This document shows positions 6,306 through 18,547 of a stretch of DNA of 19,833 bases, piece by piece. This DNA is from Clostridia bacterium (GTDB lineage: Bacteria > Bacillota > Clostridia > TANB77 > CAG-465). The stretch is taken from contig JAZSNU010000012.1 of NCBI GenBank assembly GCA_045536565.1, forward strand, positions 1 through 19,833, in the 5' to 3' direction. The notes under the pieces are model-generated. The model was given only the letters and a program-made list of their open reading frames with translations, was not told the origin of the DNA and did no database searches. Numbering within the stretch: position 1 is the first letter of the stretch; each line of letters starts with the position of its first letter. The translations under genes and the position numbers were made by a program.

Positions 6306-8702
6306 ATGAGAAAAATTAAAGAGTTAAAATACACAGATTTAAATAACGAATGTCCACTTAATGCATTCAAATTTAAAACAACTAATGACTTAGAAACATA
6401 TAATGGAATTATCGGTCAAGAAAGAGCATTAGAAGCAGTAAAAACTGCTATGCAAATATATCAAAGAGGCTTTAATCTTTATGTTTGCGGAAATGTTGGT
6501 ATGGGTAAAACTGCTTATGTATTATCAGTTGTTAACAAACTTGCAAAAAAACAAGAAATCCCAAACGACCTTTGTTATATATATAATTTTGATAATCCAA
6601 ATGAGCCACTTGCATTATCCCTTCCTGCTGGACAAGGAAGAATACTTAAAGAAGATATGAATAAATTTATCTCTTCTATTCGCGCTGAACTTACAAAATC
6701 TTTTGCTTCTTCTGATATTGAAAAAGAAAAGAAAGTAATAGTAAGCCAATACGAAGAAAAGAAAAATGAAATAATGAGAAAATTTGATGAATATACTACA
6801 TCAGAAGGATTTAAAATAAAAACTACTGAAACAGGTATATACTTCTCACCTATATATAACGGAAATGTATTAAATGAAGAACAATTTAATAGTTTAGACG
6901 ATTCTATTAAAAAAACTTTTGAAGAAAAATCACCCAAAATACAAGCCGAAACGATGGAAGTAATGAAAAAAATAGAATGTTTAGATAAAGAATGTACTAT
7001 TAAGGTTTCTGAATGGCAAGCAAACTTCACTACATACATTGTTTCAAAAAACATTAATAATTTAAAACTTAAACATAAGGATAATTTAAAAATACAAAAC
7101 TTTTTCTTTAATGTTCAGAATGATATAGTAAAAAATATTGAACATTTTAAACCAAAGGCTACAACTCCTAATATGGTTCCTATGCCTAACCAAATTCGCT
7201 TAGAACAAAGGCCATGGGAAAAATATAGAGTTAATTTACTTGTTAATAACGAAAATTTAAAACAAGCGCCTGTAATTGTTTGCACTAACCCTAGTTATTA
7301 TGATTTATTTGGTAAATTAGAATATGAAAATCAAATGGGAAGTTTAAAAACAGATCATACAATGCTTAAACCAGGTCTGCTTCATAAAGCAAATGGTGGT
7401 TACCTTTTAATAAATGCAAGAGATTTAATGTGCAATATGACTTTATGGGAAGCCTTTAAACGAGTTCTAAGAAACTGTGAACTAACAATTGACAGTTCGA
7501 GAGATATGGCAGCAGGAAATACTATTATTAGTTTAAAGCCTGAACTTATTCCTTTAAACTTACAAGTGGTTCTTATTGGTAGTGAATCTATCTATATGCA
7601 GCTTTCAAATATGGATTCTGATTTCAAAAAACTATTTAAAATGAAAGCAGACTTTGATGATACTATTCCAAGAAATGCAAATAATGTTCAAAGAACTGCC
7701 GAATATGTTGCATTCGTAGTAAAGAAAGATAACTTATTACCTTTCAAAAAAGAAGCTGTAAAAGAAATTGTTGAATACAGTTCAAGATGTGCCGGTGATA
7801 AGAGAAAACTCACTGCTATGCAAGTTGATCTTACCGACATTATTATAGAAAGTTCATTTGTTGCAGATAAAAATGGTAAAAAATTAGTAGATTCTGAACA
7901 TGTAAAAACAGCTATTAAGGATAGATTAACTCGTTATTCTAAATATGATGATAATTTAAAAGAAATGATTAAATCAGGCTCTATTCTCTTAAAAACAGAT
8001 GGTGAAGATGTTGGTAGAATAAACGGCTTAACGATAATAAATACAGGAGATGCTAGCTTTGGTAAACCAGTTTTAATTACGGCTAACACTTACCTAGGTT
8101 CTTCTGGGGTTATAAACATTGAAAGAGAAGTTTCAATGAGTGGTACTACTCATTCAAAAGGTGTATACATTTTAGCAAGTTATATTGGAGAAAAATTTGC
8201 ACAAAACATTCCACTTAGCCTAACCGCAAGTCTATGCTTTGAACAGTTATATAACGGTGTTGATGGTGATAGTGCTTCTTCTACTGAATTATATGCTATT
8301 TTATCTTCCCTTTCAGAAGTTCCTATAAAACAAGGTATAGCAGTAACAGGTTCAGTTAACCAAAAAGGTGAAATTCAGCCTATTGGTGGCGTAACAGAAA
8401 AAATTGAAGGTTTCTTTGAAATATGTAAATATCAAGGTTTAACAGGAAACCAAGGTGTTATTATTCCTTATCAAAATGTAGACAATCTTGCTTTAAACGA
8501 AGAAGTTGTAGCCGCTGTAAAAGATGGTATGTTCCATATCTATCCTGTTTCAACTATCGATGAAGGAATAGAAATATTAACTGGTGTAAAAGCAGGTAAA
8601 TATCTAGAAGATAAAGAAATGTATGAAAAAAATAGCATAAATTATTTAACTTATGAAAAACTAAAACATTATGCTGAAAAATACAGAGAATATTGTAAAT
8701 AA
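6306..8702 (+). CDS. Lon-like protease, LonC/AAA_32 type (peptidase S16)
   Basis: IGQERA, Walker A GNVGMGKT, PGLLHKANGGYL, catalytic region FEQLYNGVDGDSASSTEL and IGGVTEKIEGFF. Confidence 0.9.
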   Translation: MRKIKELKYTDLNNECPLNAFKFKTTNDLETYNGIIGQERALEAVKTAMQIYQRGFNLYVCGNVGMGKTAYVLSVVNKLAKKQEIPNDLCYIYNFDNPNEPLALSLPAGQGRILKEDMNKFISSIRAELTKSFASSDIEKEKKVIVSQYEEKKNEIMRKFDEYTTSEGFKIKTTETGIYFSPIYNGNVLNEEQFNSLDDSIKKTFEEKSPKIQAETMEVMKKIECLDKECTIKVSEWQANFTTYIVSKNINNLKLKHKDNLKIQNFFFNVQNDIVKNIEHFKPKATTPNMVPMPNQIRLEQRPWEKYRVNLLVNNENLKQAPVIVCTNPSYYDLFGKLEYENQMGSLKTDHTMLKPGLLHKANGGYLLINARDLMCNMTLWEAFKRVLRNCELTIDSSRDMAAGNTIISLKPELIPLNLQVVLIGSESIYMQLSNMDSDFKKLFKMKADFDDTIPRNANNVQRTAEYVAFVVKKDNLLPFKKEAVKEIVEYSSRCAGDKRKLTAMQVDLTDIIIESSFVADKNGKKLVDSEHVKTAIKDRLTRYSKYDDNLKEMIKSGSILLKTDGEDVGRINGLTIINTGDASFGKPVLITANTYLGSSGVINIEREVSMSGTTHSKGVYILASYIGEKFAQNIPLSLTASLCFEQLYNGVDGDSASSTELYAILSSLSEVPIKQGIAVTGSVNQKGEIQPIGGVTEKIEGFFEICKYQGLTGNQGVIIPYQNVDNLALNEEVVAAVKDGMFHIYPVSTIDEGIEILTGVKAGKYLEDKEMYEKNSINYLTYEKLKHYAEKYREYCK

Positions 8703-9383: not shown

Positions 9384-11360
9384 TTATTTTGCTGTCGTCC
9401 TTCTAACTGGTGCTACTAGAACATCAATAGTTTCTTTTAATTTGTTAATAAGTGCTGTTTTTATAGTAACTTGTACATCTTTATTTTTATCTGCTATTAT
9501 ACTAGATAATTTCTTTAAATTTTTCTTATCAAATTTAAGCAGTTTTTTGTTATTTTCATATCTTGAATTTACAATACTTATAAAGTTATACATATCATAG
9601 TTTGTTATTTTTAACAATCTATCATATAAAAGTTCCATATCATATTTTTCAAATATAGCAACATTGCTAAACTCTGATACTACCTCTTTATAGAATAAAT
9701 CTACATCATCAATAAGTTTTTTAAACAAATCTGCAACTTTATCTTTTTCAAGATTTTCGGAATATTGCAATTTAGCATCTCTACAATCTTCTGCAAACTT
9801 CCTTATTATTTCATCAGTACTGTCTAATCCTTCGTATTCATCATCTGTAACAATTACATCAGTTTGCTTTGTAAGTGCTATTTTAAAGCCTAATAAAAAC
9901 CTATTAGAAAGTTCATCAATAGTCATTGCATCTATTAATTTCAAATCATGTAATTGCTTGTATACTCCAAATAGTCTTGTATATTCTGAACTTGGAACTT
10001 CTCCTGCTTTTACACTATCTAACACTTTGGTTGCTGTTATCTCAAAATCAATATCAGACATTTTCCAATAGCTTCCATCAATTATTTTTAAATACAATGG
10101 ATCATTTTTTCTTTCCTTTTTATTTAAAGCTTTCTTCATATCCTCTTTAAATTGTTTTTCATCAAACATTCTTGTTCTTACATACATTTCAACAAATTTA
10201 AAGAATCTATATTCTTCTTTACAATTTAAGAAATATCTTGTATCGAATTCTCTTAAATAATACTGGCTAGAATCACTCATTATATTTGAAGTAAATAGTA
10301 TTGATTTATATTCTTCGTTTGATTTTACACTACTAAATTTAGCCTTAACAACATTTCCTACCTTTATTTCAAATGATATTGCTATTGTAAATATAAGGAT
10401 AGTTTTAAGCATATCATTTGATACATTAGGATATTCTCTTGTAACATTATCATATATTCTTTCAAAATCATTTAAAGCATGTTTTAATACTCTTAGATTT
10501 CTTGTATTAGTTTTATTAAATGTATTAATTATGGTTGCTATTTCCATTTTTAAGAATTTCTCAAATAACTTGTTATAATCATAACGCATAATCATACCAC
10601 TTAATATGTATGAATACTCAGGAACATATTCAAAACATTCACCAACTAATTTTTCTTTTATTCTCTCATATGCATTTGCTCTATCAAAAATACTTTCAAC
10701 CTTTTCTTCCAACTTATTTGCAACTGGTTCTTCAAGGGTATCTACTAATTCTGTTTTCTTACCTTTACCTTCTTTTTCAAGCATTAATGTTGCAATTAAA
10801 GTTTTCATTTCAATATTATTATTTTTAAATTTAATAGCAAGTTCTTTTTCATTACATATTAATATAGTTTTTATTCCATCATGCTCAACAAAGTTATTTA
10901 TATATCCTAATATATCTATTATATCAATATTGGCTCTTTCTAAGTCATCAAAGCAAAGTATTTTATCGTCAGTAGTAAACATTTTAGCAAAATCTATTTT
11001 ACCACCATCTACTTGCATTGTTCCATATAAATTTGCTATATCAACACCAGTTTTTACATACTCTGGTATAACATTACCATCTGTATTTTCAGCAAACTTC
11101 TTTAATGTTTTAGTTAAAACTGGATTTGTTTCTAAGAATATTTTCTTGCTTATTTCTTCTATACTATTTATACCATACAAAGAAATGTATATTGTTTTAT
11201 ATGTTTTCCCCGCTTTGTTTTTTATGACTTCTAATCTTTTCCTTAGTTTATTATTCCAAAAATGAGTCTTTCCACTTCCCCATTCTCCATTAATCATTAT
11301 TGCATAATCAGTATATGGTTTTCTAACATATTCTTCTATGCTTTCAATTAATTCTTTCAT
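9384..11360 (-). CDS. KAP-family P-loop NTPase with a long uncharacterised C-terminal region
   Basis: YAIMINGEWGSGKT (Walker A), ILCFDDLER (Walker B), EKLVG and NLRVLKHAL. ATG at 11360 is preferred over GTG at 11369 because AAGGGGTG sits 6 nt upstream of it. Promoter TTGCTA-17-TATAAT at 11392-11420. Confidence 0.8.
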   Translation of the reverse strand: MKELIESIEEYVRKPYTDYAIMINGEWGSGKTHFWNNKLRKRLEVIKNKAGKTYKTIYISLYGINSIEEISKKIFLETNPVLTKTLKKFAENTDGNVIPEYVKTGVDIANLYGTMQVDGGKIDFAKMFTTDDKILCFDDLERANIDIIDILGYINNFVEHDGIKTILICNEKELAIKFKNNNIEMKTLIATLMLEKEGKGKKTELVDTLEEPVANKLEEKVESIFDRANAYERIKEKLVGECFEYVPEYSYILSGMIMRYDYNKLFEKFLKMEIATIINTFNKTNTRNLRVLKHALNDFERIYDNVTREYPNVSNDMLKTILIFTIAISFEIKVGNVVKAKFSSVKSNEEYKSILFTSNIMSDSSQYYLREFDTRYFLNCKEEYRFFKFVEMYVRTRMFDEKQFKEDMKKALNKKERKNDPLYLKIIDGSYWKMSDIDFEITATKVLDSVKAGEVPSSEYTRLFGVYKQLHDLKLIDAMTIDELSNRFLLGFKIALTKQTDVIVTDDEYEGLDSTDEIIRKFAEDCRDAKLQYSENLEKDKVADLFKKLIDDVDLFYKEVVSEFSNVAIFEKYDMELLYDRLLKITNYDMYNFISIVNSRYENNKKLLKFDKKNLKKLSSIIADKNKDVQVTIKTALINKLKETIDVLVAPVRRTTAK

Positions 11361-11447
11361 AAACTGCACCCCTTAAATTACCTTTTCCTACATTATATAC
11401 TTAACTTTAATTTTTAGCAAGTACTATCATAATTTATTTGCAAATAG

Positions 11448-11497: not shown

Positions 11498-12436
11498 TTA
11501 ATACTCATATGAAAGATCATTCCATTTTCCGTCAAAATATTTGTAAGTATATTTTTTTAGTTTTAGAGATGATTTTTGGAAAAATTTATTGTATTTTACA
11601 TGATAATATATCGGCCTTCCATTCATTGACAACTCAATAAATGGCGTATGATTTACTTCTTGGTACAAATCAAAAGCAATAGGAAGTATTTGGTAACCAT
11701 CCCCACCATATAAACCATATAGGCCATCATTTTTTACAACAAACACATCAAGATTTTTAAGATACTCTATATAATCATATTTTACTGGTAAGACTTCGTT
11801 ACCATCTGATGTAAACACTCCAAATTTTAAGTTTATTTTTGTCATAACAAATTCATGATTTTTTCCAAAAAGCTTTAAATCATCATATATAGGTTTTATA
11901 AGGCACTCACCATCAATATCATAAATACCTTTCTTTCCTTTTTTAGTTACACTAAATGTACAATTGCTATCATTAATAGTAATTCCATCAAATTTTATTG
12001 GAAGAATAATATCACCATATTGATTATAAATTCCTTTTACTTCCCTTATCGTGTCCTTAGTTTTAATATACTTGGTAAGTAAAATATAATCGTACTCTGT
12101 CATCAATTCTACCTTTACAAATGGACCGAAAACTTTTTGCTTGTCATCAAAAAAGATATAGAAATTATCATTGTCATTACATATGATATAATATTCTTCA
12201 TGTATTTCCCATCCAACAACATTTTCTATACAAAATAGTTTTTTTCCATCTTCTAGTGCAAATCCTTCAACAGTACATTTTTTGTCGACAACTATATTTC
12301 CTATTGTGTGCGTGTCTGTTTCTATTCTGCCAATAACTGATTTATCATACGGCTGCACATTGTCATAAATATAATCTGTATACCATACTCCTTCCACATT
12401 AATTCTATACTTTTTTTCTGCCTTAAAATTACTCAT
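11498..12436 (-). CDS. WG-repeat (KWG/WG_beta_rep-like) protein
   Basis: Four repeats: KGIYNQYGDIILPIKFD, KGIYDIDGECLIKPIYD, FGVFTSDGNEVLPVKYD, YGLYGGDGYQILPIAFD. AAGGAGG RBS and promoter TTGCAC-17-TATAAT (12485-12513). Confidence 0.8.
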   Translation of the reverse strand: MSNFKAEKKYRINVEGVWYTDYIYDNVQPYDKSVIGRIETDTHTIGNIVVDKKCTVEGFALEDGKKLFCIENVVGWEIHEEYYIICNDNDNFYIFFDDKQKVFGPFVKVELMTEYDYILLTKYIKTKDTIREVKGIYNQYGDIILPIKFDGITINDSNCTFSVTKKGKKGIYDIDGECLIKPIYDDLKLFGKNHEFVMTKINLKFGVFTSDGNEVLPVKYDYIEYLKNLDVFVVKNDGLYGLYGGDGYQILPIAFDLYQEVNHTPFIELSMNGRPIYYHVKYNKFFQKSSLKLKKYTYKYFDGKWNDLSYEY

Positions 12437-14736: not shown

Positions 14737-15798
14737 TTATTCTAATGTAACATTTAATTCTACTGGATGATGGTCGCTATACTTAAAATCGTTTGAAACA
14801 GTTTTTACACTATTTAATTTAACATTAGGACTAAGAATATATCCATCTATTACATAAAGCTGAGTATTTGTATCTTCTACTTTATATGATTTATTAAGTA
14901 ATCTGCTTGTTGGATTTTCATCATCTACTGCATATTTAAATCCTTCTGGAAGATAATCTTCTGGTATTTCTTTTGCAGAAAAATGACTATCATCTAGTAC
15001 TGGATATTTAGACTTATCTACCACTGGGAATGTGTGATTAAAATCCCCACCTGCTATTACATAGTTTCCTTTTTCATATTCATCTATCATTATCTCTTTA
15101 AGTTTGTTTAATTGTTTTTCTCTTGAACTGCCATTATCATATGCCTCTAAATGTAGATTAATTATTACAAGCTGATTCTCAGATTTTTCTATATCAATTC
15201 TTTGTAACATCAGACATCTTTTAAACATAACCATACTCATTGGGAAATTATATGCACTATCAAAAGCAATTCTTTCTGTTTCTCCTTGATATTTATTTAA
15301 TATCATCATACCTGAATGAACATATCCAACAGGATTTGTTAAAGGATATGGTATGTACAAACATTTATGATAAGTTGCATATGTTGCTGTTCCACCGAAA
15401 CATGCTTTTAATTCTTCATATTGATTTATCTTGTATGATCTTTTTGCTTTATAGTCTACTTCTTGGAATAAATATATATCAGCATTTTTTTCTTTTATAT
15501 ATCTTTTTACTCCATATAAATTGTTTTGTACATTTGCATTAGTTTCTGGCATTATACCTTGTCCACCATCCATAAAAAAGTCTTGTGAACTATCTAGTGA
15601 CAAATATCCTATATTGTATGTAACAATATTTAGTGTTGCTCCTTTTTGTAATTTATATATTGATTCTCCGTCAGATTTTAATTTTTCTACATCATCTGGA
15701 CAATACTCAGTTACAAACAACACTAAAAAACCTATTACCAATAACGATAATATAGTTATCAACACTATTAACAATATTTTCCATATTTTACTATTCAT
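14737..15798 (-). CDS. Membrane-anchored endonuclease/exonuclease/phosphatase (EEP) family protein
   Basis: N-terminal hydrophobic helix, TYNIGY, FQEVD, NLHLEAY, GGDFN, IDGYILS, SDHHPV. Confidence 0.88.
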   Translation of the reverse strand: MNSKIWKILLIVLITILSLLVIGFLVLFVTEYCPDDVEKLKSDGESIYKLQKGATLNIVTYNIGYLSLDSSQDFFMDGGQGIMPETNANVQNNLYGVKRYIKEKNADIYLFQEVDYKAKRSYKINQYEELKACFGGTATYATYHKCLYIPYPLTNPVGYVHSGMMILNKYQGETERIAFDSAYNFPMSMVMFKRCLMLQRIDIEKSENQLVIINLHLEAYDNGSSREKQLNKLKEIMIDEYEKGNYVIAGGDFNHTFPVVDKSKYPVLDDSHFSAKEIPEDYLPEGFKYAVDDENPTSRLLNKSYKVEDTNTQLYVIDGYILSPNVKLNSVKTVSNDFKYSDHHPVELNVTLE

Positions 15799-15904
15799 AC
15801 TTATTCCCCTTTATTTTTATATATTATATCACCAATTATATAAATATGGAATGTTAAATAGGATAAAATATAACAAATTATTTATACTATTTCTTATGTA
15901 AGTA

Positions 15905-15936
15905 ATATACCCACCAGAATAAACCGGTGGGTATAT
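15905..15936 (-). terminator. Hairpin immediately downstream of the Cys-rich peptide ORF
   Basis: 11-bp perfect stem ATATACCCACC / GGTGGGTATAT with a 10-nt loop, 16 nt after the peptide stop. The minus-strand U-tail is weak. Confidence 0.65.
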
Positions 15937-15952
15937 GTTTTTTGCATAGATG

Positions 15953-16066
15953 TTAATCACCATCTACACAGTTACAATCTGTACACTGACTGCACTGACC
16001 GCCAGAAGTCTGACCAGAAATACAATCACTTACCATGTACATTCCATTTGAAGCATAAATGAACAT
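15953..16066 (-). CDS. Putative RiPP precursor peptide, 37 aa, Cys-rich (not in the ORF track)
   Basis: Manual translation: MFIYASNGMYMVSDCISGQTSGGQCSQCTDCNCVDGD*. SD AAAGGAG lies 7 nt before the ATG, which is 2 nt after the maturase stop. A hairpin follows. Confidence 0.8.
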   Translation of the reverse strand: MFIYASNGMYMVSDCISGQTSGGQCSQCTDCNCVDGD

Positions 16067-16068
16067 TT

Positions 16069-17457
16069 TTATTCTCCTTTCTTATTATTATAGTATATAT
16101 TCATCGCATAAATACGAAGAACATCAGGTAAACATTCCTTATACAAATTACAATAAGGCGAAACATGTAAAAATGTTTTATATGATGCATATGTTTGCAG
16201 AGGACATGCTCCTGCACAACTATGTCTCCAAATACATTTGCTGCATTCCTCAATATCACAAGCAGATGTTTTGGATATTTCAGAAAAAATGTTATCAATA
16301 TCAGTAATTACATCTTTTAACTCTGTAATATTTGATTTTGTACATTCAAGTCCTAAACTACACGAACCTATTGATCCATCCTGACCTATTGAAAAGAAAT
16401 TTTTGCCTGCTGCACACGCTCTTCTTACAGGTTTTGAAAAGGTTACATCACCAAATTGAAAAGCCCAACCCAAGTTTCCTTTACATAGTTCATCTTTCAT
16501 GATTTTAAAACATTGTTTTAATATTTTAATACAATATTTCTCATCTTCAAGAATAGCTGGTTTTCCAGTTTGAGTATCTCTTTCAAAAGAAAATCTAAAG
16601 AATATCTTTTTATTTATCATAAACTTAGTAAGTTCTGGAAGACCTTCTAAATTTTCTTTTGTAACTGTAACCATAATAGATGGTTTTATACCATGATTAA
16701 TGAGATTATCAATTCCATTCATTGCTGATTTATAACTTCCACTGCCATCGCGTCTTATTCTATTTTTATCGTGATATCGTTCAATACCATCAATAGAAAC
16801 ACCAACTGACATATTTTGATCCGCAATATATTTTGCTATTTCCGGTGTTATTAAAGTTCCGTTTGTAGGTATTACATATCTAACTTGTATATCCCCTTTA
16901 TTTTTGGCACAATACTCAACTATTTCTTTTATTAAATCAAATCGCATTAATGGCTCTCCACCAACTAACATTAAGCATAGTTTTGGAAAATTATTTTTAC
17001 GACATGATTCTAACATTTTATCAATGGACTCATACACAATGCAATTTGGCATATTAGATTTTGTTTTGTGAATATAACAATATTTGCATCTAAGATTACA
17101 ATCGTTTGTTATATGTAACCAACATGTAAGTTCTTTTTGCCAAGCATCATTAGTAGGTGAAATTTTATCAGCTATTAACATATGTTTTTCTACAAGTGAC
17201 TCAACAATAATATTTGCCATTTTTTCATCTTCTTTATTAAAATTAGCATTTTTTATTGCCTCTTTAATATTACAATTACCATCAAATAGTTTTAAAAAAT
17301 CAACTACTTTTTTACCAACTGTTAATACTCCTCCGTATCCTACCGGATTATATAATAAAAATACATCTTCATCATATTTATTTTCCTCTTTGGATAAAAT
17401 ACGATCAATCAACAGTTCCTTTGGTAGTTTAAGTACCATTTTTTCATCTAGCTTCAT
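16069..17457 (-). CDS. Radical SAM/SPASM peptide maturase with probable N-terminal RRE (PqqD-like) domain
   Basis: CNLRCKYC (CX3CX2C), GGEP, VSIDG. SPASM C-X12-G-X4-C (CAAGKNFFSIGQDGSIGSC), CX2CX5CX3C (CSKCIWRHSCAGAC) and a later Cys. An N-terminal extension of about 95 aa has an RRE-like pattern. Confidence 0.9.
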   Translation of the reverse strand: MKLDEKMVLKLPKELLIDRILSKEENKYDEDVFLLYNPVGYGGVLTVGKKVVDFLKLFDGNCNIKEAIKNANFNKEDEKMANIIVESLVEKHMLIADKISPTNDAWQKELTCWLHITNDCNLRCKYCYIHKTKSNMPNCIVYESIDKMLESCRKNNFPKLCLMLVGGEPLMRFDLIKEIVEYCAKNKGDIQVRYVIPTNGTLITPEIAKYIADQNMSVGVSIDGIERYHDKNRIRRDGSGSYKSAMNGIDNLINHGIKPSIMVTVTKENLEGLPELTKFMINKKIFFRFSFERDTQTGKPAILEDEKYCIKILKQCFKIMKDELCKGNLGWAFQFGDVTFSKPVRRACAAGKNFFSIGQDGSIGSCSLGLECTKSNITELKDVITDIDNIFSEISKTSACDIEECSKCIWRHSCAGACPLQTYASYKTFLHVSPYCNLYKECLPDVLRIYAMNIYYNNKKGE

Positions 17458-17535
17458 ATTTATTCCTCCATATCATATTAATTATTTTACTCACTTAATT
17501 TATTTGAACCAAGTTATACTAAATATTTCTCAGAA

Positions 17536-17564
17536 ATTATATCATGTTTACATAATTTTGTCAA
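17536..17564 (-). promoter_or_regulatory. Consensus sigma-A promoter for the maturase-peptide operon
   Basis: TTGACA-17 nt-TATAAT with extended -10 TG (TTGACAAAATTATGTAAACATGATATAAT). Confidence 0.75.
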
Positions 17565-17617
17565 TTACACAACAATAATTTGTTTTTTTCTACAAAATTT
17601 GTTATACTAATTATGTT

Positions 17618-18547
17618 ATGGAAAAAGAAAGATATTTACATTTAAACAAATATTTAAAAGAAAAATTTGGTGAAAGAGTTTTAAAAATATGTGTTGATGC
17701 AGGTTTTACTTGTCCTAATAGAGATGGAAACAAATCAAAATTAGGTTGTATCTTTTGTTCTGAAAAAGGTTCAGGGGAGCATTTAAAAAACTTACTATCT
17801 ATCTCAGAACAAGTAAAAAAACATCTTGAAAGTTATAGAGGTCAAAGAGCAAATAAATTTATTGTATATTTTCAGAACTTTTCTAATACTTATGATACAC
17901 CAGATAATTTAAAAGAAAAATATGATGCTGCATTAATAGATGATAGAATTGTTGGTATAGCTGTTGCAACTCGCCCAGATTGTATAACAGAAGATATTGC
18001 AAAACTATTAAAAAGCTATACTAATAAATATTATGTATTTGTAGAACTTGGACTTCAAACTTCAAACGAAGAAATAGGAAAAAAGATAAATAGATGTTAT
18101 ACCAATGAATATTTTACTTATGCTACAAACTTGCTTAACAAATATAACATAGATGTTGTTGCTCATATGATGTGTGGGCTTCCAGGTGAAACATATGAGG
18201 ATATACAAAATACAGTCAATTTTTTAAATAGTCATAACATATCTGGTCTTAAAATACATTCTACATATGTAGTGAAAAATACTGCACTTGCTGATATGTA
18301 TTATACAAAAAAATATACTCCTATTTCACTTGAATATTACTTAGATTGTTTAGAATATATTATATCAAATATTAGGCCTGATGTTGTAATTCATAGAATT
18401 TCAGGTGATGCTCCAAAAGAACTACTTATTTCGCCTGATTGGAATCTTCATAAAAAATGGGTTTTAAATGGATTAGATAAAATACTTAGAGAAAAAGATA
18501 TTTACCAAGGAATGAATTATATAGATGAAAAACAAAAAACATATTAA
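17618..18547 (+). CDS. TIGR01212-family radical SAM protein (YhcC/YtqA-like)
   Basis: GFTCPNRDG...GCIFCS, YFQNFSNTY, TRPDC, ELGLQT, GLPGE, KIH and HRISGD. Confidence 0.92.
   Translation: MEKERYLHLNKYLKEKFGERVLKICVDAGFTCPNRDGNKSKLGCIFCSEKGSGEHLKNLLSISEQVKKHLESYRGQRANKFIVYFQNFSNTYDTPDNLKEKYDAALIDDRIVGIAVATRPDCITEDIAKLLKSYTNKYYVFVELGLQTSNEEIGKKINRCYTNEYFTYATNLLNKYNIDVVAHMMCGLPGETYEDIQNTVNFLNSHNISGLKIHSTYVVKNTALADMYYTKKYTPISLEYYLDCLEYIISNIRPDVVIHRISGDAPKELLISPDWNLHKKWVLNGLDKILREKDIYQGMNYIDEKQKTY

What the first reader, a model, noticed from the sequence alone, without database searches (positions are those of the whole stretch)
15905..17564. Candidate undescribed RiPP system: RRE-radical SAM-SPASM maturase plus an unannotated 37-aa five-cysteine precursor
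Seen in sequence: a perfect TTGACA-17-TGnTATAAT promoter precedes a 462-aa radical SAM/SPASM enzyme. Its last codons (K-G-E) contain the SD AAAGGAG for a 37-codon ORF starting 2 nt after the stop, MFIYASNGMYMVSDCISGQTSGGQCSQCTDCNCVDGD, followed by an 11-bp hairpin. The peptide has a hydrophobic/aromatic N-terminus and a Cys/Ser/Gly/Asp-rich C-terminus (C15, C25, C28, C31, C33), resembling a leader and a core. Established: RRE-SPASM enzymes next to Cys-rich peptides install thioether crosslinks (sactipeptides; ranthipeptides such as thermocellin/CteB and freyrasin/PapB). Inference: this is a precursor-maturase pair. It does not match the SCIFF six-Cys pattern, and the peptide lies downstream of the enzyme, so it may be a distinct family. 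Novelty cannot be confirmed without searches.
Basis: partly seen in the sequence, partly recalled or inferred. Interest (0 to 1): 0.9.

Follow-up and report, generated by a model that had tools for sequence, protein, structure and literature searches.

The report
Small cysteine-rich peptide with its maturase
A two-gene operon encodes a radical SAM enzyme and, right behind it, a 37-residue cysteine- and aspartate-rich peptide that the enzyme most likely cross-links; the pair belongs to a rare family with no name in the libraries searched, found in gut Clostridia and in distant phyla.

Summary
A 12-of-12 sigma-70-type promoter with an extended -10 (17564..17536) precedes a 462-aa radical SAM/SPASM enzyme (17457..16069). 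A Shine-Dalgarno sequence lies in its last codons. A 37-codon ORF starts 2 nt after its stop (16066..15953), and a 13-bp hairpin follows (15936..15905).

The small ORF is a real gene. In three relatives whose enzymes are 58-73% identical, its last 16 codons differ by 6-12 synonymous and 0 non-synonymous changes in every pair. A similar Cys/Asp-rich ORF follows the enzyme in 12 of the 19 members of the window's clade (chance rate 38 of 25,252 frames). That clade includes Patescibacteria and Bacteroidota.

The enzyme models with high confidence and resembles CteB most closely. It reaches no NCBIfam cut-off; the best is PapB at 154 of 340 bits. The peptide hits no Pfam or NCBIfam model. A complex prediction places peptide residues 1-7 on the enzyme's N-terminal recognition domain (0.73 against 0.00 for controls).

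The most likely chemistry is several Cys-to-Asp thioether bridges of the ranthipeptide type, but this is not shown. I rate it a new, uncurated variant of a well-known kind of system, of moderate interest.

The parts
17536..17564 (-). Sigma-70-type promoter: TTGACA (17564-17559), 17-nt spacer, TG-extended TATAAT (17541-17536)
   Evidence: 12 of 12 matches with TG; the only perfect site in 15700-17700. Sequence read.
17465..17469 (-). Shine-Dalgarno GGAGG of the maturase gene, 7 nt before its ATG
   Evidence: Read directly.
16069..17457 (-). Maturase gene, 462 aa (P0001): N-terminal RRE-like domain, radical SAM core, SPASM domain
   Evidence: ORF. PF04055, 82.7 bits. AF2 pLDDT 93.9. Foldseek best match CteB, E 1.3e-20; family profile against CteB, E 8.6e-44.
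17158..17457 (-). Residues 1-100: predicted peptide-recognition (RRE-like) domain
   Evidence: strands 8-10, 16-21, 32-36, 44-47 and 59-63; helices 49-55, 64-70 and 75-90; peptide residues 1-7 touch residues 42-48, 50-51, 54 and 77-91; the alignment to CteB starts at CteB residue 22. Pfam PqqD was not hit in this protein.
17077..17100 (-). Radical SAM cluster motif C120-x3-C124-x2-C127
   Evidence: sequence; all three Cys are invariant in 35 relatives.
16150..16416 (-). SPASM seven-Cys region: C348-x12-G-x4-C366, C405-x2-C408-x5-C414-x3-C418, C436
   Evidence: sequence; all seven Cys are invariant in 35 relatives; they align with the CteB cysteines. Pfam PF13186 matched 0 of 35.
16074..16080 (-). 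Shine-Dalgarno AAAGGAG of the peptide gene, inside the maturase's last codons
   Evidence: GGAGG-type sites sit in the same place in L001-L003.
15953..16066 (-). Precursor peptide gene, 37 codons plus TAA (P0002)
   Evidence: 0 non-synonymous against 6-12 synonymous differences in the last 16 codons in all 6 pairs; family alignment; 18 relatives, none carrying a descriptive name (one labelled only 'hypothetical protein').
16025..16066 (-). Residues 1-14: short leader. Residues 1-7 (M-F-I-Y-A-S-N) are the predicted recognition strand. The leader/core boundary is inferred.
   Evidence: interface on chain 2, residues 1-7. M1 is invariant and a hydrophobic M-x-I/V-I/V/Y start is conserved.
15956..16024 (-). 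Residues 15-37: Cys/Asp-rich core (C15, C25, C28, D30, C31, C33, D35, D37)
   Evidence: C25, D30 and C31 are invariant; C28 and C33 are present in >= 90% of 14 peptides; composition and spacings.
15905..15936 (-). 13-bp hairpin after the peptide gene, a likely transcript end; no T-run follows
   Evidence: -21.6 kcal/mol, z -5.9; not called as a terminator by the consensus scan.

Best explanation
This is a self-contained two-gene operon for a ribosomally made, post-translationally modified peptide (RiPP).

A strong promoter drives the maturase gene. The 37-residue precursor is translated from a ribosome-binding site inside the maturase's last codons. A hairpin ends the transcript.

The first seven residues of the peptide, a hydrophobic strand that begins at Met1, dock on the maturase's N-terminal recognition domain. 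This presents the acidic, five-cysteine C-terminal part to the active site. There the enzyme cleaves S-adenosylmethionine at its radical SAM cluster, removes a hydrogen atom from an acceptor residue, and joins a cysteine sulfur to that carbon with the help of the two SPASM clusters. Repeating this yields a compact peptide with several thioether rings.

I think the acceptors are most likely Asp side-chain carbons, which would make it a ranthipeptide-type product as with PapB or QhpD.

Shown here: the gene pair, its conservation, selection on the peptide, and the enzyme's fold and cluster motifs.
Inferred: binding (model only), the thioether chemistry, the acceptor atoms, the number of rings, and the product's role.

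The Clostridial version has no protease or exporter gene beside it.
For: Anatomy is confirmed.

Coding status of the small ORF:
- Among the window, L001, L002 and L003 (maturases 58-73% identical), the last 16 codons show 6-12 synonymous and 0 non-synonymous differences in all 6 pairs.

Conserved position:
- The criterion was a same-strand frame ending 30-450 nt after the maturase stop, with >= 4 Cys and >= 3 Asp/Glu in its last 25 residues.
- It is met by 4 of 4 loci at >= 50% identity and 9 of 20 at 33-50%. Elsewhere in the loci it is met by 38 of 25,252 frames.
- On the maturase tree, the window's 19-row clade (SH-aLRT 99) has 12 rows with such a peptide. L008 has a diverged one that misses the criterion.
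- Of the 7 further rows of the 26-row clade, 6 have one. The seventh has only 30 nt of sequence downstream.

Peptide family:
- M1, C25, D30 and C31 are invariant among 14 peptides.

Enzyme:
- CX3CX2C and all seven SPASM cysteines are invariant in 35 relatives.
- The AF2 model has pLDDT 93.9.
- The best solved-structure matches are CteB (5WHY E 1.3e-20, TMq 0.64; 5WGG E 7.4e-20, TMq 0.67), and profile E 8.6e-44 over CteB 22-451.
- The best NCBIfam hits are the thioether formers PapB (153.7 bits) and QhpD (126.4 bits).

Complex prediction:
- Score 0.73 (runs 0.71, 0.73, 0.76); best of 3 controls 0.00.
- That mark was reached by 58 of 80 solved complexes and 2 of 110 mismatched pairs.
- The runs agree in at least 28% of contacts; partner pLDDT is at least 36.
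- Peptide residues 1-7 lie against maturase residues 42-48, 50-51, 54, 77-91 and 454-459.

Chemistry lead:
- PapB links the Cys sulfur to the Asp beta-carbon in CX3D motifs and tolerates spacings of 0-6 (PMC9413430, passages).
- The window's core has C31-x3-D35 and C33-x3-D37.

Companion gene:
- In 10 non-Clostridial loci an HExxH protein gene lies next to the peptide gene. This fits a leader peptidase.
Against: - No mass or activity data exist, so the chemistry is inferred by likeness only.
- The enzyme fails every curated NCBIfam cut-off (PapB 153.7 of 340; QhpD 126.4 of 453; SCIFF maturase 103.8 of 425). Function cannot therefore be transferred by membership.
- Close structural matches also include enzymes with other chemistry: anSME, TigE, ChlB and SuiB.
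- Pfam sees neither SPASM (0 of 35) nor PqqD/RRE (2 of 35, and not in the window's protein).
- Six of the 19 clade rows have no similar downstream peptide: L085 (frameshifted maturase), L086, L010, L088, L089 and L091.
- The complex pass may reflect likeness to solved maturase-peptide complexes (CteB, SuiB). The peptide's own pLDDT is only 36-39, and nothing confident was predicted for the core.
- CX3[D/E] is enriched over shuffles (41 against 28.6 +/- 4.2; 2 of 2000 shuffles reach it), but so are CX1 and CX6. The 25 peptides are kin, so this is weak.
- The window has no protease, exporter or immunity gene nearby, and the HExxH gene was not found in the window's own genome with one query.
- No T-run follows the hairpin.
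Confidence: 0.55

Rival explanations
1. The gene pair is the same, but the bridges are sactionine links (sulfur to alpha-carbon), which would make the product a sactipeptide rather than a ranthipeptide.
For: The same enzyme architecture (RRE, radical SAM, SPASM) makes sactipeptides. The NCBIfam hit list includes the sactisynthases RumMC (106.2 bits) and StsB (85.7 bits). SkfB is among the fold matches. Precord et al. 2023 (PMC10288494: abstract and section 6 read) stress that full-length similarity predicts this chemistry poorly.
Against: The best family hits are non-alpha thioether formers: PapB and QhpD by HMM, and CteB by fold and profile. The core's conserved partners of Cys are Asp residues at PapB-like spacings. 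Neither point is decisive.
Confidence: 0.15
2. The enzyme modifies the peptide by other radical chemistry, such as Cys oxidation as by anSME, epimerisation, or C-C or C-O cross-links. Alternatively the mature peptide is an intracellular metal-binding or redox factor rather than a secreted thioether peptide.
For: anSME, TigE (listed only as 'TigE'; that it is a cyclopropyl synthase is recalled), ChlB and SuiB are all strong fold matches. No curated family cut-off is met. The window has no exporter or protease. The host genome is only 1.13 Mb. Most of the peptides carry no Lys or Arg, and each has 4-13 Asp/Glu.
Against: The invariant residues of the core are Cys and Asp, the pairing used by PapB. 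No aromatic or aliphatic core residue is conserved that would suit cyclophane or cyclopropyl chemistry.
Confidence: 0.2
3. The 37-codon ORF is a chance open frame, and the maturase acts on a substrate encoded elsewhere.
For: The ORF is short. No RNA data could be found. Six of the 19 clade rows lack a similar ORF.
Against: There are 0 non-synonymous against 6-12 synonymous differences over the last 16 codons in all 6 pairs. A Shine-Dalgarno site is conserved. The ORF keeps its position across phyla against a background of 38 in 25,252 frames. The profile search finds relatives of the same length only.
Confidence: 0.03

Closest known systems
PapB/PapA (freyrasin ranthipeptide system; NCBIfam NF047865)
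   Same: PapB is the best NCBIfam hit for the window's maturase and for five further relatives tested (153.7, 156.6, 169.2, 108.2, 151 and 158.5 bits). The substrates of both systems are rich in Cys and Asp. The window's core has two CX3D spacings, like the PapA motifs.
   Different: The scores are less than half the 340-bit cut-off. The PapB model aligns only from residue 114 onward, so the N-terminal domain is not covered. The precursor is 37 aa with one compact C-x2-C-x-D-C-x-C-x-D-G-D block, not six CX3D repeats. The precursor gene lies downstream of the enzyme gene.
CteB/CteA (thermocellin; SCIFF family, TIGR03974)
   Same: CteB is the closest solved structure. Foldseek gives E 1.3e-20 to 7.4e-20 and TMq 0.64-0.67 over about 460 columns. 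The family profile gives E 8.6e-44 over CteB residues 22-451, with the radical SAM and all SPASM cysteines aligned. Both are minimal cassettes without an exporter.
   Different: The SCIFF maturase model scores 103.8 bits against a cut-off of 425. SCIFF maturases form a separate, long-branched outgroup. The peptide hits no NCBIfam model at E <= 10. It has five cysteines, and its gene follows the enzyme gene.
QhpD/QhpC (quinohemoprotein amine dehydrogenase maturation; TIGR03906)
   Same: QhpD is the second-best NCBIfam hit, and its alignment is nearly full length (residues 48-452 against model positions 29-449 of 467). From established knowledge (recalled), QhpD makes Cys-to-Asp/Glu thioethers.
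   Different: It scores 126.4 bits against a cut-off of 453. I noted no amine dehydrogenase among the window ORFs scanned. The substrate here is a free 37-aa peptide, not an enzyme subunit.
Sister clade of the same uncurated superfamily (Patescibacteria/Microgenomates loci such as L090, L093, L103, L113)
   Same: These maturases are 30-32% identical to the window's and have the same best NCBIfam hit, PapB at 156-169 bits. Their small partner peptides are also rich in Cys and Asp/Glu.
   Different: Their peptides lie upstream of the enzyme and carry C-x-C-x-C-type cores such as D-C-A-C. The clade is separate on the tree (43 rows).

Membership tests
Radical SAM superfamily (PF04055) | CX3CX2C cluster motif and a Pfam score above the gathering threshold | tested here: met
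   C120-x3-C124-x2-C127, invariant in 35 relatives. PF04055 scores 82.7 bits against a threshold of 29.5 and matches 35 of 35 members.
SPASM subfamily | Seven-Cys motif CX9-15GX4C ... CX2CX5CX3C ... C for two auxiliary clusters (motif recalled from the literature) | tested here: met
   C348-x12-G361-x4-C366, C405-x2-C408-x5-C414-x3-C418 and C436. All are invariant and align to the CteB cysteines. Caveat: Pfam PF13186 matches 0 of 35 members at E <= 0.01.
RRE-containing RiPP maturases | N-terminal PqqD-like winged-helix domain that binds the leader as an added beta-strand | tested here: inconclusive
   For: the model shows strands and helices in residues 1-90. Foldseek and profile alignments to CteB extend into its N-terminal domain. 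In the complex model the peptide's residues 1-7 touch residues 42-48 (which span strand 44-47), 50-51 and 54 (in helix 49-55) and 77-91 (spanning helix 75-90). Against: Pfam PqqD does not hit P0001 at E <= 1 and matches only 2 of 35 members (best E 0.0077). RRE-Finder and HHpred were not available.
PapB family ranthipeptide maturase (NF047865, equivalog) | Score at or above the curated cut-off of 340 bits | tested here: not met
   153.7 bits.
SCIFF system (maturase TIGR03974 plus six-Cys precursor) | Maturase at or above 425 bits, and a precursor matching the SCIFF peptide model | tested here: not met
   The maturase scores 103.8 bits. The peptide matches 0 NCBIfam families at E <= 10, as do six relatives. 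SCIFF maturases are a distant outgroup.
QhpD (TIGR03906) and CcpM (TIGR04068) | Scores at or above 453 and 500 bits | tested here: not met
   126.4 and 116.9 bits.
Ranthipeptides (class defined by chemistry) | Thioether from the Cys sulfur to a non-alpha carbon of the acceptor residue | not testable with these tools
   Needs MS/MS, NMR or isotope labelling of the modified peptide.
Sactipeptides (class defined by chemistry) | Thioether from the Cys sulfur to an alpha-carbon | not testable with these tools
   As above.

The most novel reading that the evidence does not exclude
The family is a distinct, horizontally moving minimal RiPP system of reduced-genome bacteria (gut Clostridia of about 1.1 Mb, Patescibacteria). 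Its recognition element is a seven-residue strand starting at the initiator Met. Its hyper-acidic, poly-thioether product is not an antibiotic. It would instead be an intracellular or surface metal-binding, redox or signalling factor. In the non-Clostridial versions it would be processed by a previously undescribed HExxH peptidase family.
Probability: 0.12. Interest if true: 0.7.

Novelty: new variant of a known kind. Interest (0 to 1): 0.45.

Why it matters
Radical SAM/SPASM maturases with cysteine-rich peptides are a productive source of new peptide cross-links and of enzymes used to cyclise designed peptides; PapB is already used that way. This family offers several practical points:
- a very small substrate of 37 residues with a roughly 7-residue recognition strand;
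- a core kept identical across enzymes that are only 58-73% alike;
- natural variants from three phyla.

That makes it a convenient system for working out how such enzymes choose donor and acceptor residues.

Its presence in 1.1-Mb gut Clostridia and in Patescibacteria, without an exporter, also bears on an open question. That question is what SCIFF-like peptides do for the cell.

It is nevertheless one uncharacterised family among many of its kind.

Tried and rejected
- RNA evidence: the look-up of sequencing runs listed no RNA holder.
- Pfam and NCBIfam give nothing for the peptide or its relatives.
- Pfam does not see SPASM and barely sees PqqD in the maturase family.
- My first regular expression for the peptide (C..C..C.C) was too strict and missed most relatives. 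I replaced it with a composition criterion that has a measured background.
- I first guessed that the distant Myxococcales relatives, whose upstream proteins end in D-C-S repeats, were the CXXX-repeat family. The one tested (L031) does not reach that model; its only hit at E <= 1e-30 is PapB at 108 bits. I dropped the guess.
- The CX3[D/E] enrichment test is not independent evidence. The peptides are kin, and other spacings are enriched too.
- Foldseek found nothing significant in the PDB for the HExxH protein (0 matches at E <= 0.001). The weak matches were mostly M1 zinc aminopeptidases. The Atlas gave only unnamed clusters.
- One query did not find the HExxH protein in the window's genome. 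This is 'not found with this query', not proof of absence.
- The neighbours in the window are unrelated housekeeping genes: the tRNA-modification radical SAM protein MnmL/YtqA (304 bits against a cut-off of 180) and an endonuclease/exonuclease/phosphatase-family protein.
- Literature: seven full-text searches found no description of this family. Five core-motif strings gave 0 papers. Supplementary tables of the large radical SAM RiPP surveys (for example PMC10288494) could not be opened and may list it.
Full report
**1. What is in the sequence**

Everything in the finding lies on the minus strand.

- The 462-codon ORF runs 17457..16069 and ends ...N-K-K-G-E-TAA.
- AAAGGAG (16080..16074) sits inside its last codons.
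- Two bases after the TAA, an ATG at 16066 opens a 37-codon frame that ends with TAA at 15955-15953.
- Upstream, TTGACA, 17 nt and TG-extended TATAAT (17564..17536) form the only 12-of-12 promoter match in 15700-17700. The total number of promoter-like sites there (13) is not above shuffles (16.8 +/- 4.2).
- GGAGG lies 7 nt before the maturase's ATG.
- After the small ORF, a 13-bp stem (15936..15905) folds at -21.6 kcal/mol with z = -5.9. No T-run follows, and the consensus terminator scan found nothing.

**2. Is the small ORF a gene?**

Yes.

- Three related loci (L001, L002, L003; maturases 73, 63 and 58% identical) carry a 37-codon ORF at the same place, each behind a GGAGG-type site.
- Over the last 16 codons, all six pairwise comparisons show 6-12 synonymous and 0 non-synonymous codon differences. 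The N-terminal part varies more, with 8-12 non-synonymous differences over the whole ORF.
- The frame has only five sense codons upstream of Met1, so the start is fixed.

**3. Conservation of the pair**

I fetched 159 loci that encode relatives of the maturase.

- The test criterion was a same-strand frame ending 30-450 nt after the maturase stop, with >= 4 Cys and >= 3 Asp/Glu in its last 25 residues.
- It is met by 38 of 25,252 frames elsewhere in these loci.
- It is met by 4 of 4 loci at >= 50% identity (the window included), 9 of 20 at 33-50%, 9 of 43 at 30-33%, 1 of 55 at 27-30% and 1 of 38 below 27%.

I built a quick maximum-likelihood tree of 70 family rows plus 4 SCIFF maturases as outgroup. 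Before building it I dropped rows under 29.5% identity, maturases that were cut off or shorter than 330 aa, and 6 exact duplicates.

- The window falls in a 19-row clade (SH-aLRT 99), which also holds Clostridia/Oscillospiraceae, a Prolixibacteraceae (Bacteroidota) genome, a Saccharimonas genome and Patescibacteria.
- Twelve of the 19 rows meet the criterion.
- L008 has a diverged peptide that narrowly misses it.
- Six rows lack one: L085, whose maturase is frameshifted; L086; and four near-identical loci, L010, L088, L089 and L091.
- Of the seven further rows of the enclosing 26-row clade (support 87), six have the peptide. The seventh has only 30 nt downstream.
- In the 43-row sister clade, small Cys-rich ORFs lie upstream instead, or none was found.

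**4. The peptide family**

- Fourteen peptides align with M1, C25, D30 and C31 invariant, and C28 and C33 present in >= 90%.
- The alignment tool's consensus is MxIxxD...DC....SGxECxQxCxDCNCxDGDCxDx.
- The Clostridial subtype ends at D-G-D, and its sequence from G22 onward is nearly fixed.
- Most of the peptides have no Lys or Arg, and each has 4-13 Asp/Glu.
- A profile search of 5.8 billion protein clusters found 18 members of 35-52 aa. None has a Pfam domain, and the only name given is 'hypothetical protein'.
- A full HMMER pass over 1.84 billion cluster representatives found 10 at E <= 0.001.
- No NCBIfam model hits the window's peptide or six relatives at E <= 10. No Pfam model hits the window's peptide at E <= 1.

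**5. The enzyme**

- Pfam sees Radical_SAM (82.7 bits) and Fer4_12.
- CX3CX2C (C120, C124, C127) and seven later cysteines in the SPASM pattern (C348, C366, C405, C408, C414, C418, C436) are invariant in 35 relatives.
- The AlphaFold2 model is confident: pLDDT 93.9 and pTM 0.91.
- Foldseek ranks CteB first (E 1.3e-20 to 7.4e-20, TMq 0.64-0.67, about 460 columns). TigE, anSME, ChlB, SuiB and SkfB follow.
- A family profile matches CteB at E 8.6e-44 over CteB residues 22-451, with the cluster cysteines aligned.
- In NCBIfam the best hits are PapB (153.7 bits, cut-off 340), QhpD (126.4, cut-off 453), DynA, CbpB and CcpM, with the SCIFF maturase at 103.8 (cut-off 425). None reaches its cut-off.
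- Five further relatives, from both clades and from Myxococcales, also have PapB as best hit, at 108-169 bits. The whole superfamily is therefore uncurated.
- Pfam's SPASM model matches 0 of 35 members. PqqD matches 2 of 35.

**6. Do they bind?**

A complex prediction with both alignments scored 0.73 (runs 0.71, 0.73, 0.76), against 0.00 for the best of three controls.

- That mark was reached by 58 of 80 solved complexes and 2 of 110 mismatched pairs.
- The runs agree in at least 28% of contacts, and the partner's pLDDT is at least 36.
- Confident contacts join peptide residues 1-7 to maturase residues 42-48, 50-51, 54, 77-91 and 454-459. In the model, 42-48 span strand 44-47, 50-51 and 54 lie in helix 49-55, 77-91 span helix 75-90, and 454-459 lie in the C-terminal helix 436-461.
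- This is the usual way a leader docks on a recognition domain.
- Complexes of CteB and SuiB with their peptides are solved, so the pass may partly be likeness. Nothing confident was predicted for the core.

**7. Mechanism**

The shown facts are an operon, a conserved and selected peptide, and an RRE-like/radical SAM/SPASM enzyme whose nearest relatives by HMM and fold form thioethers.

From these I infer repeated Cys-to-acceptor thioether formation on the C-terminal core.

- PapB joins Cys to the Asp beta-carbon in CX3D motifs and tolerates spacings of 0-6 (PMC9413430, passages).
- The window's core has C31-x3-D35 and C33-x3-D37, and also C28-x-D30.
- CX3[D/E] is enriched over shuffles (41 against 28.6 +/- 4.2; 2 of 2000), but CX1 and CX6 are too. 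The peptides are kin, so this is only a lead.
- I could not test alpha-carbon linkage or other radical chemistry.

**8. Context**

- The flanking genes in the window are unrelated. A divergent tRNA-modification radical SAM gene, MnmL/YtqA (304 bits, cut-off 180), lies upstream. An endonuclease/exonuclease/phosphatase-family gene lies downstream, followed by RecD2.
- No protease, exporter or immunity gene is nearby.
- In 10 non-Clostridial loci an approximately 230-aa protein gene lies beside the peptide gene, on the same strand in most (L022 and L085 on the opposite strand). It has an invariant H-E-x-x-H plus a later Glu and no Pfam or NCBIfam hit.
- Its model is confident (pLDDT 92.8). It has no significant PDB match; the weak matches are mostly M1 zinc peptidases.
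- I read it as a candidate leader peptidase. One query did not find it in the window's genome.
- The host genome is 1.13 Mb and 100% complete.
- At E <= 1e-60 the maturase is present in 2 of 5 other species of the genus and in 0 of 73 species of five other genera of the family. The cassette is therefore accessory and patchy.

**9. Novelty**

- The kind of system, a radical SAM/SPASM maturase with a Cys-rich peptide, is well known.
- This family has no curated model, no name from any source, and no hit in seven literature searches, including a search for its core motifs.
- Its distinctive points are:
  - the very short precursor, with recognition starting at Met1;
  - the downstream, translationally coupled position of the peptide gene;
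  - the compact C/D core;
  - the spread across three phyla;
  - the HExxH companion gene.
- I rate it a new variant of a known kind, with interest 0.45.

Noticed in passing
Own genome, G000:C2 (L161:1234-2583 + and L161:2589-2756 +): A second orphan radical SAM/SPASM maturase of 449 aa. Its best NCBIfam hit is the FibroRumin maturase at 237 bits, below the cut-off of 400. It also ends in K-K-G-E and is followed 5 nt later by a 55-aa ORF with five cysteines that has no NCBIfam hit. So a 1.13-Mb genome carries two such cassettes, each with the peptide gene downstream.
   Followed up: partly
L005:5543-6232, L006:4625-5347, L007:5582-6268, L015:5568-6281, L083:3877-4578, L087:5560-6213 (all +), L022:5491-6168 (-); also L085, L108, L116: An approximately 230-aa protein family with an invariant H-E-x-x-H plus a later Glu lies next to the precursor gene in 10 non-Clostridial loci. 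It has no Pfam or NCBIfam hit. Its AF2 model has pLDDT 92.8. Only weak PDB matches were found, mostly M1 zinc peptidases. It is a candidate leader peptidase of an undescribed family.
   Followed up: partly
L090, L093, L098, L103, L113, L115, L127 (upstream of the maturase match): The sister clade of maturases, mostly from Patescibacteria/Microgenomates, has small upstream ORFs with C-x-C-x-C-type cores such as D-C-A-C. These enzymes also reach no NCBIfam cut-off; the two tested scored 156.6 and 169.2 bits against PapB.
   Followed up: partly
L024, L028, L030-L032, L042, L043, L050, L054, L068, L069, L134, L136, L150, L158 (upstream of the maturase match): Distant relatives (24-27% identical, mostly Myxococcales) are preceded by long open frames of about 400 codons or more that end in runs of D-C-S-x repeats. 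The one maturase tested (L031) hits only PapB, at 108 bits.
   Followed up: no
L081:3325-3456 and L081:3560-3697: Two different precursor genes in tandem follow one maturase gene.
   Followed up: no
L085:1-1306: The maturase is split into two overlapping frames (4-915 and 896-1306), and no downstream peptide is present. This may be a decaying copy. An HExxH-family gene lies on the opposite strand.
   Followed up: no
Own family of genomes (G001-G078): The maturase is patchy. At E <= 1e-60 it was found in 2 of 5 other species of the genus and in 0 of 73 species of five other genera.
   Followed up: yes
window 9384-11369 (-), 11498-12436 (-), 6306-8702 (+): A KAP-family P-loop NTPase, a WG-repeat protein and a LonC-like protease lie elsewhere in the window. 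I saw no link to the cassette.
   Followed up: no
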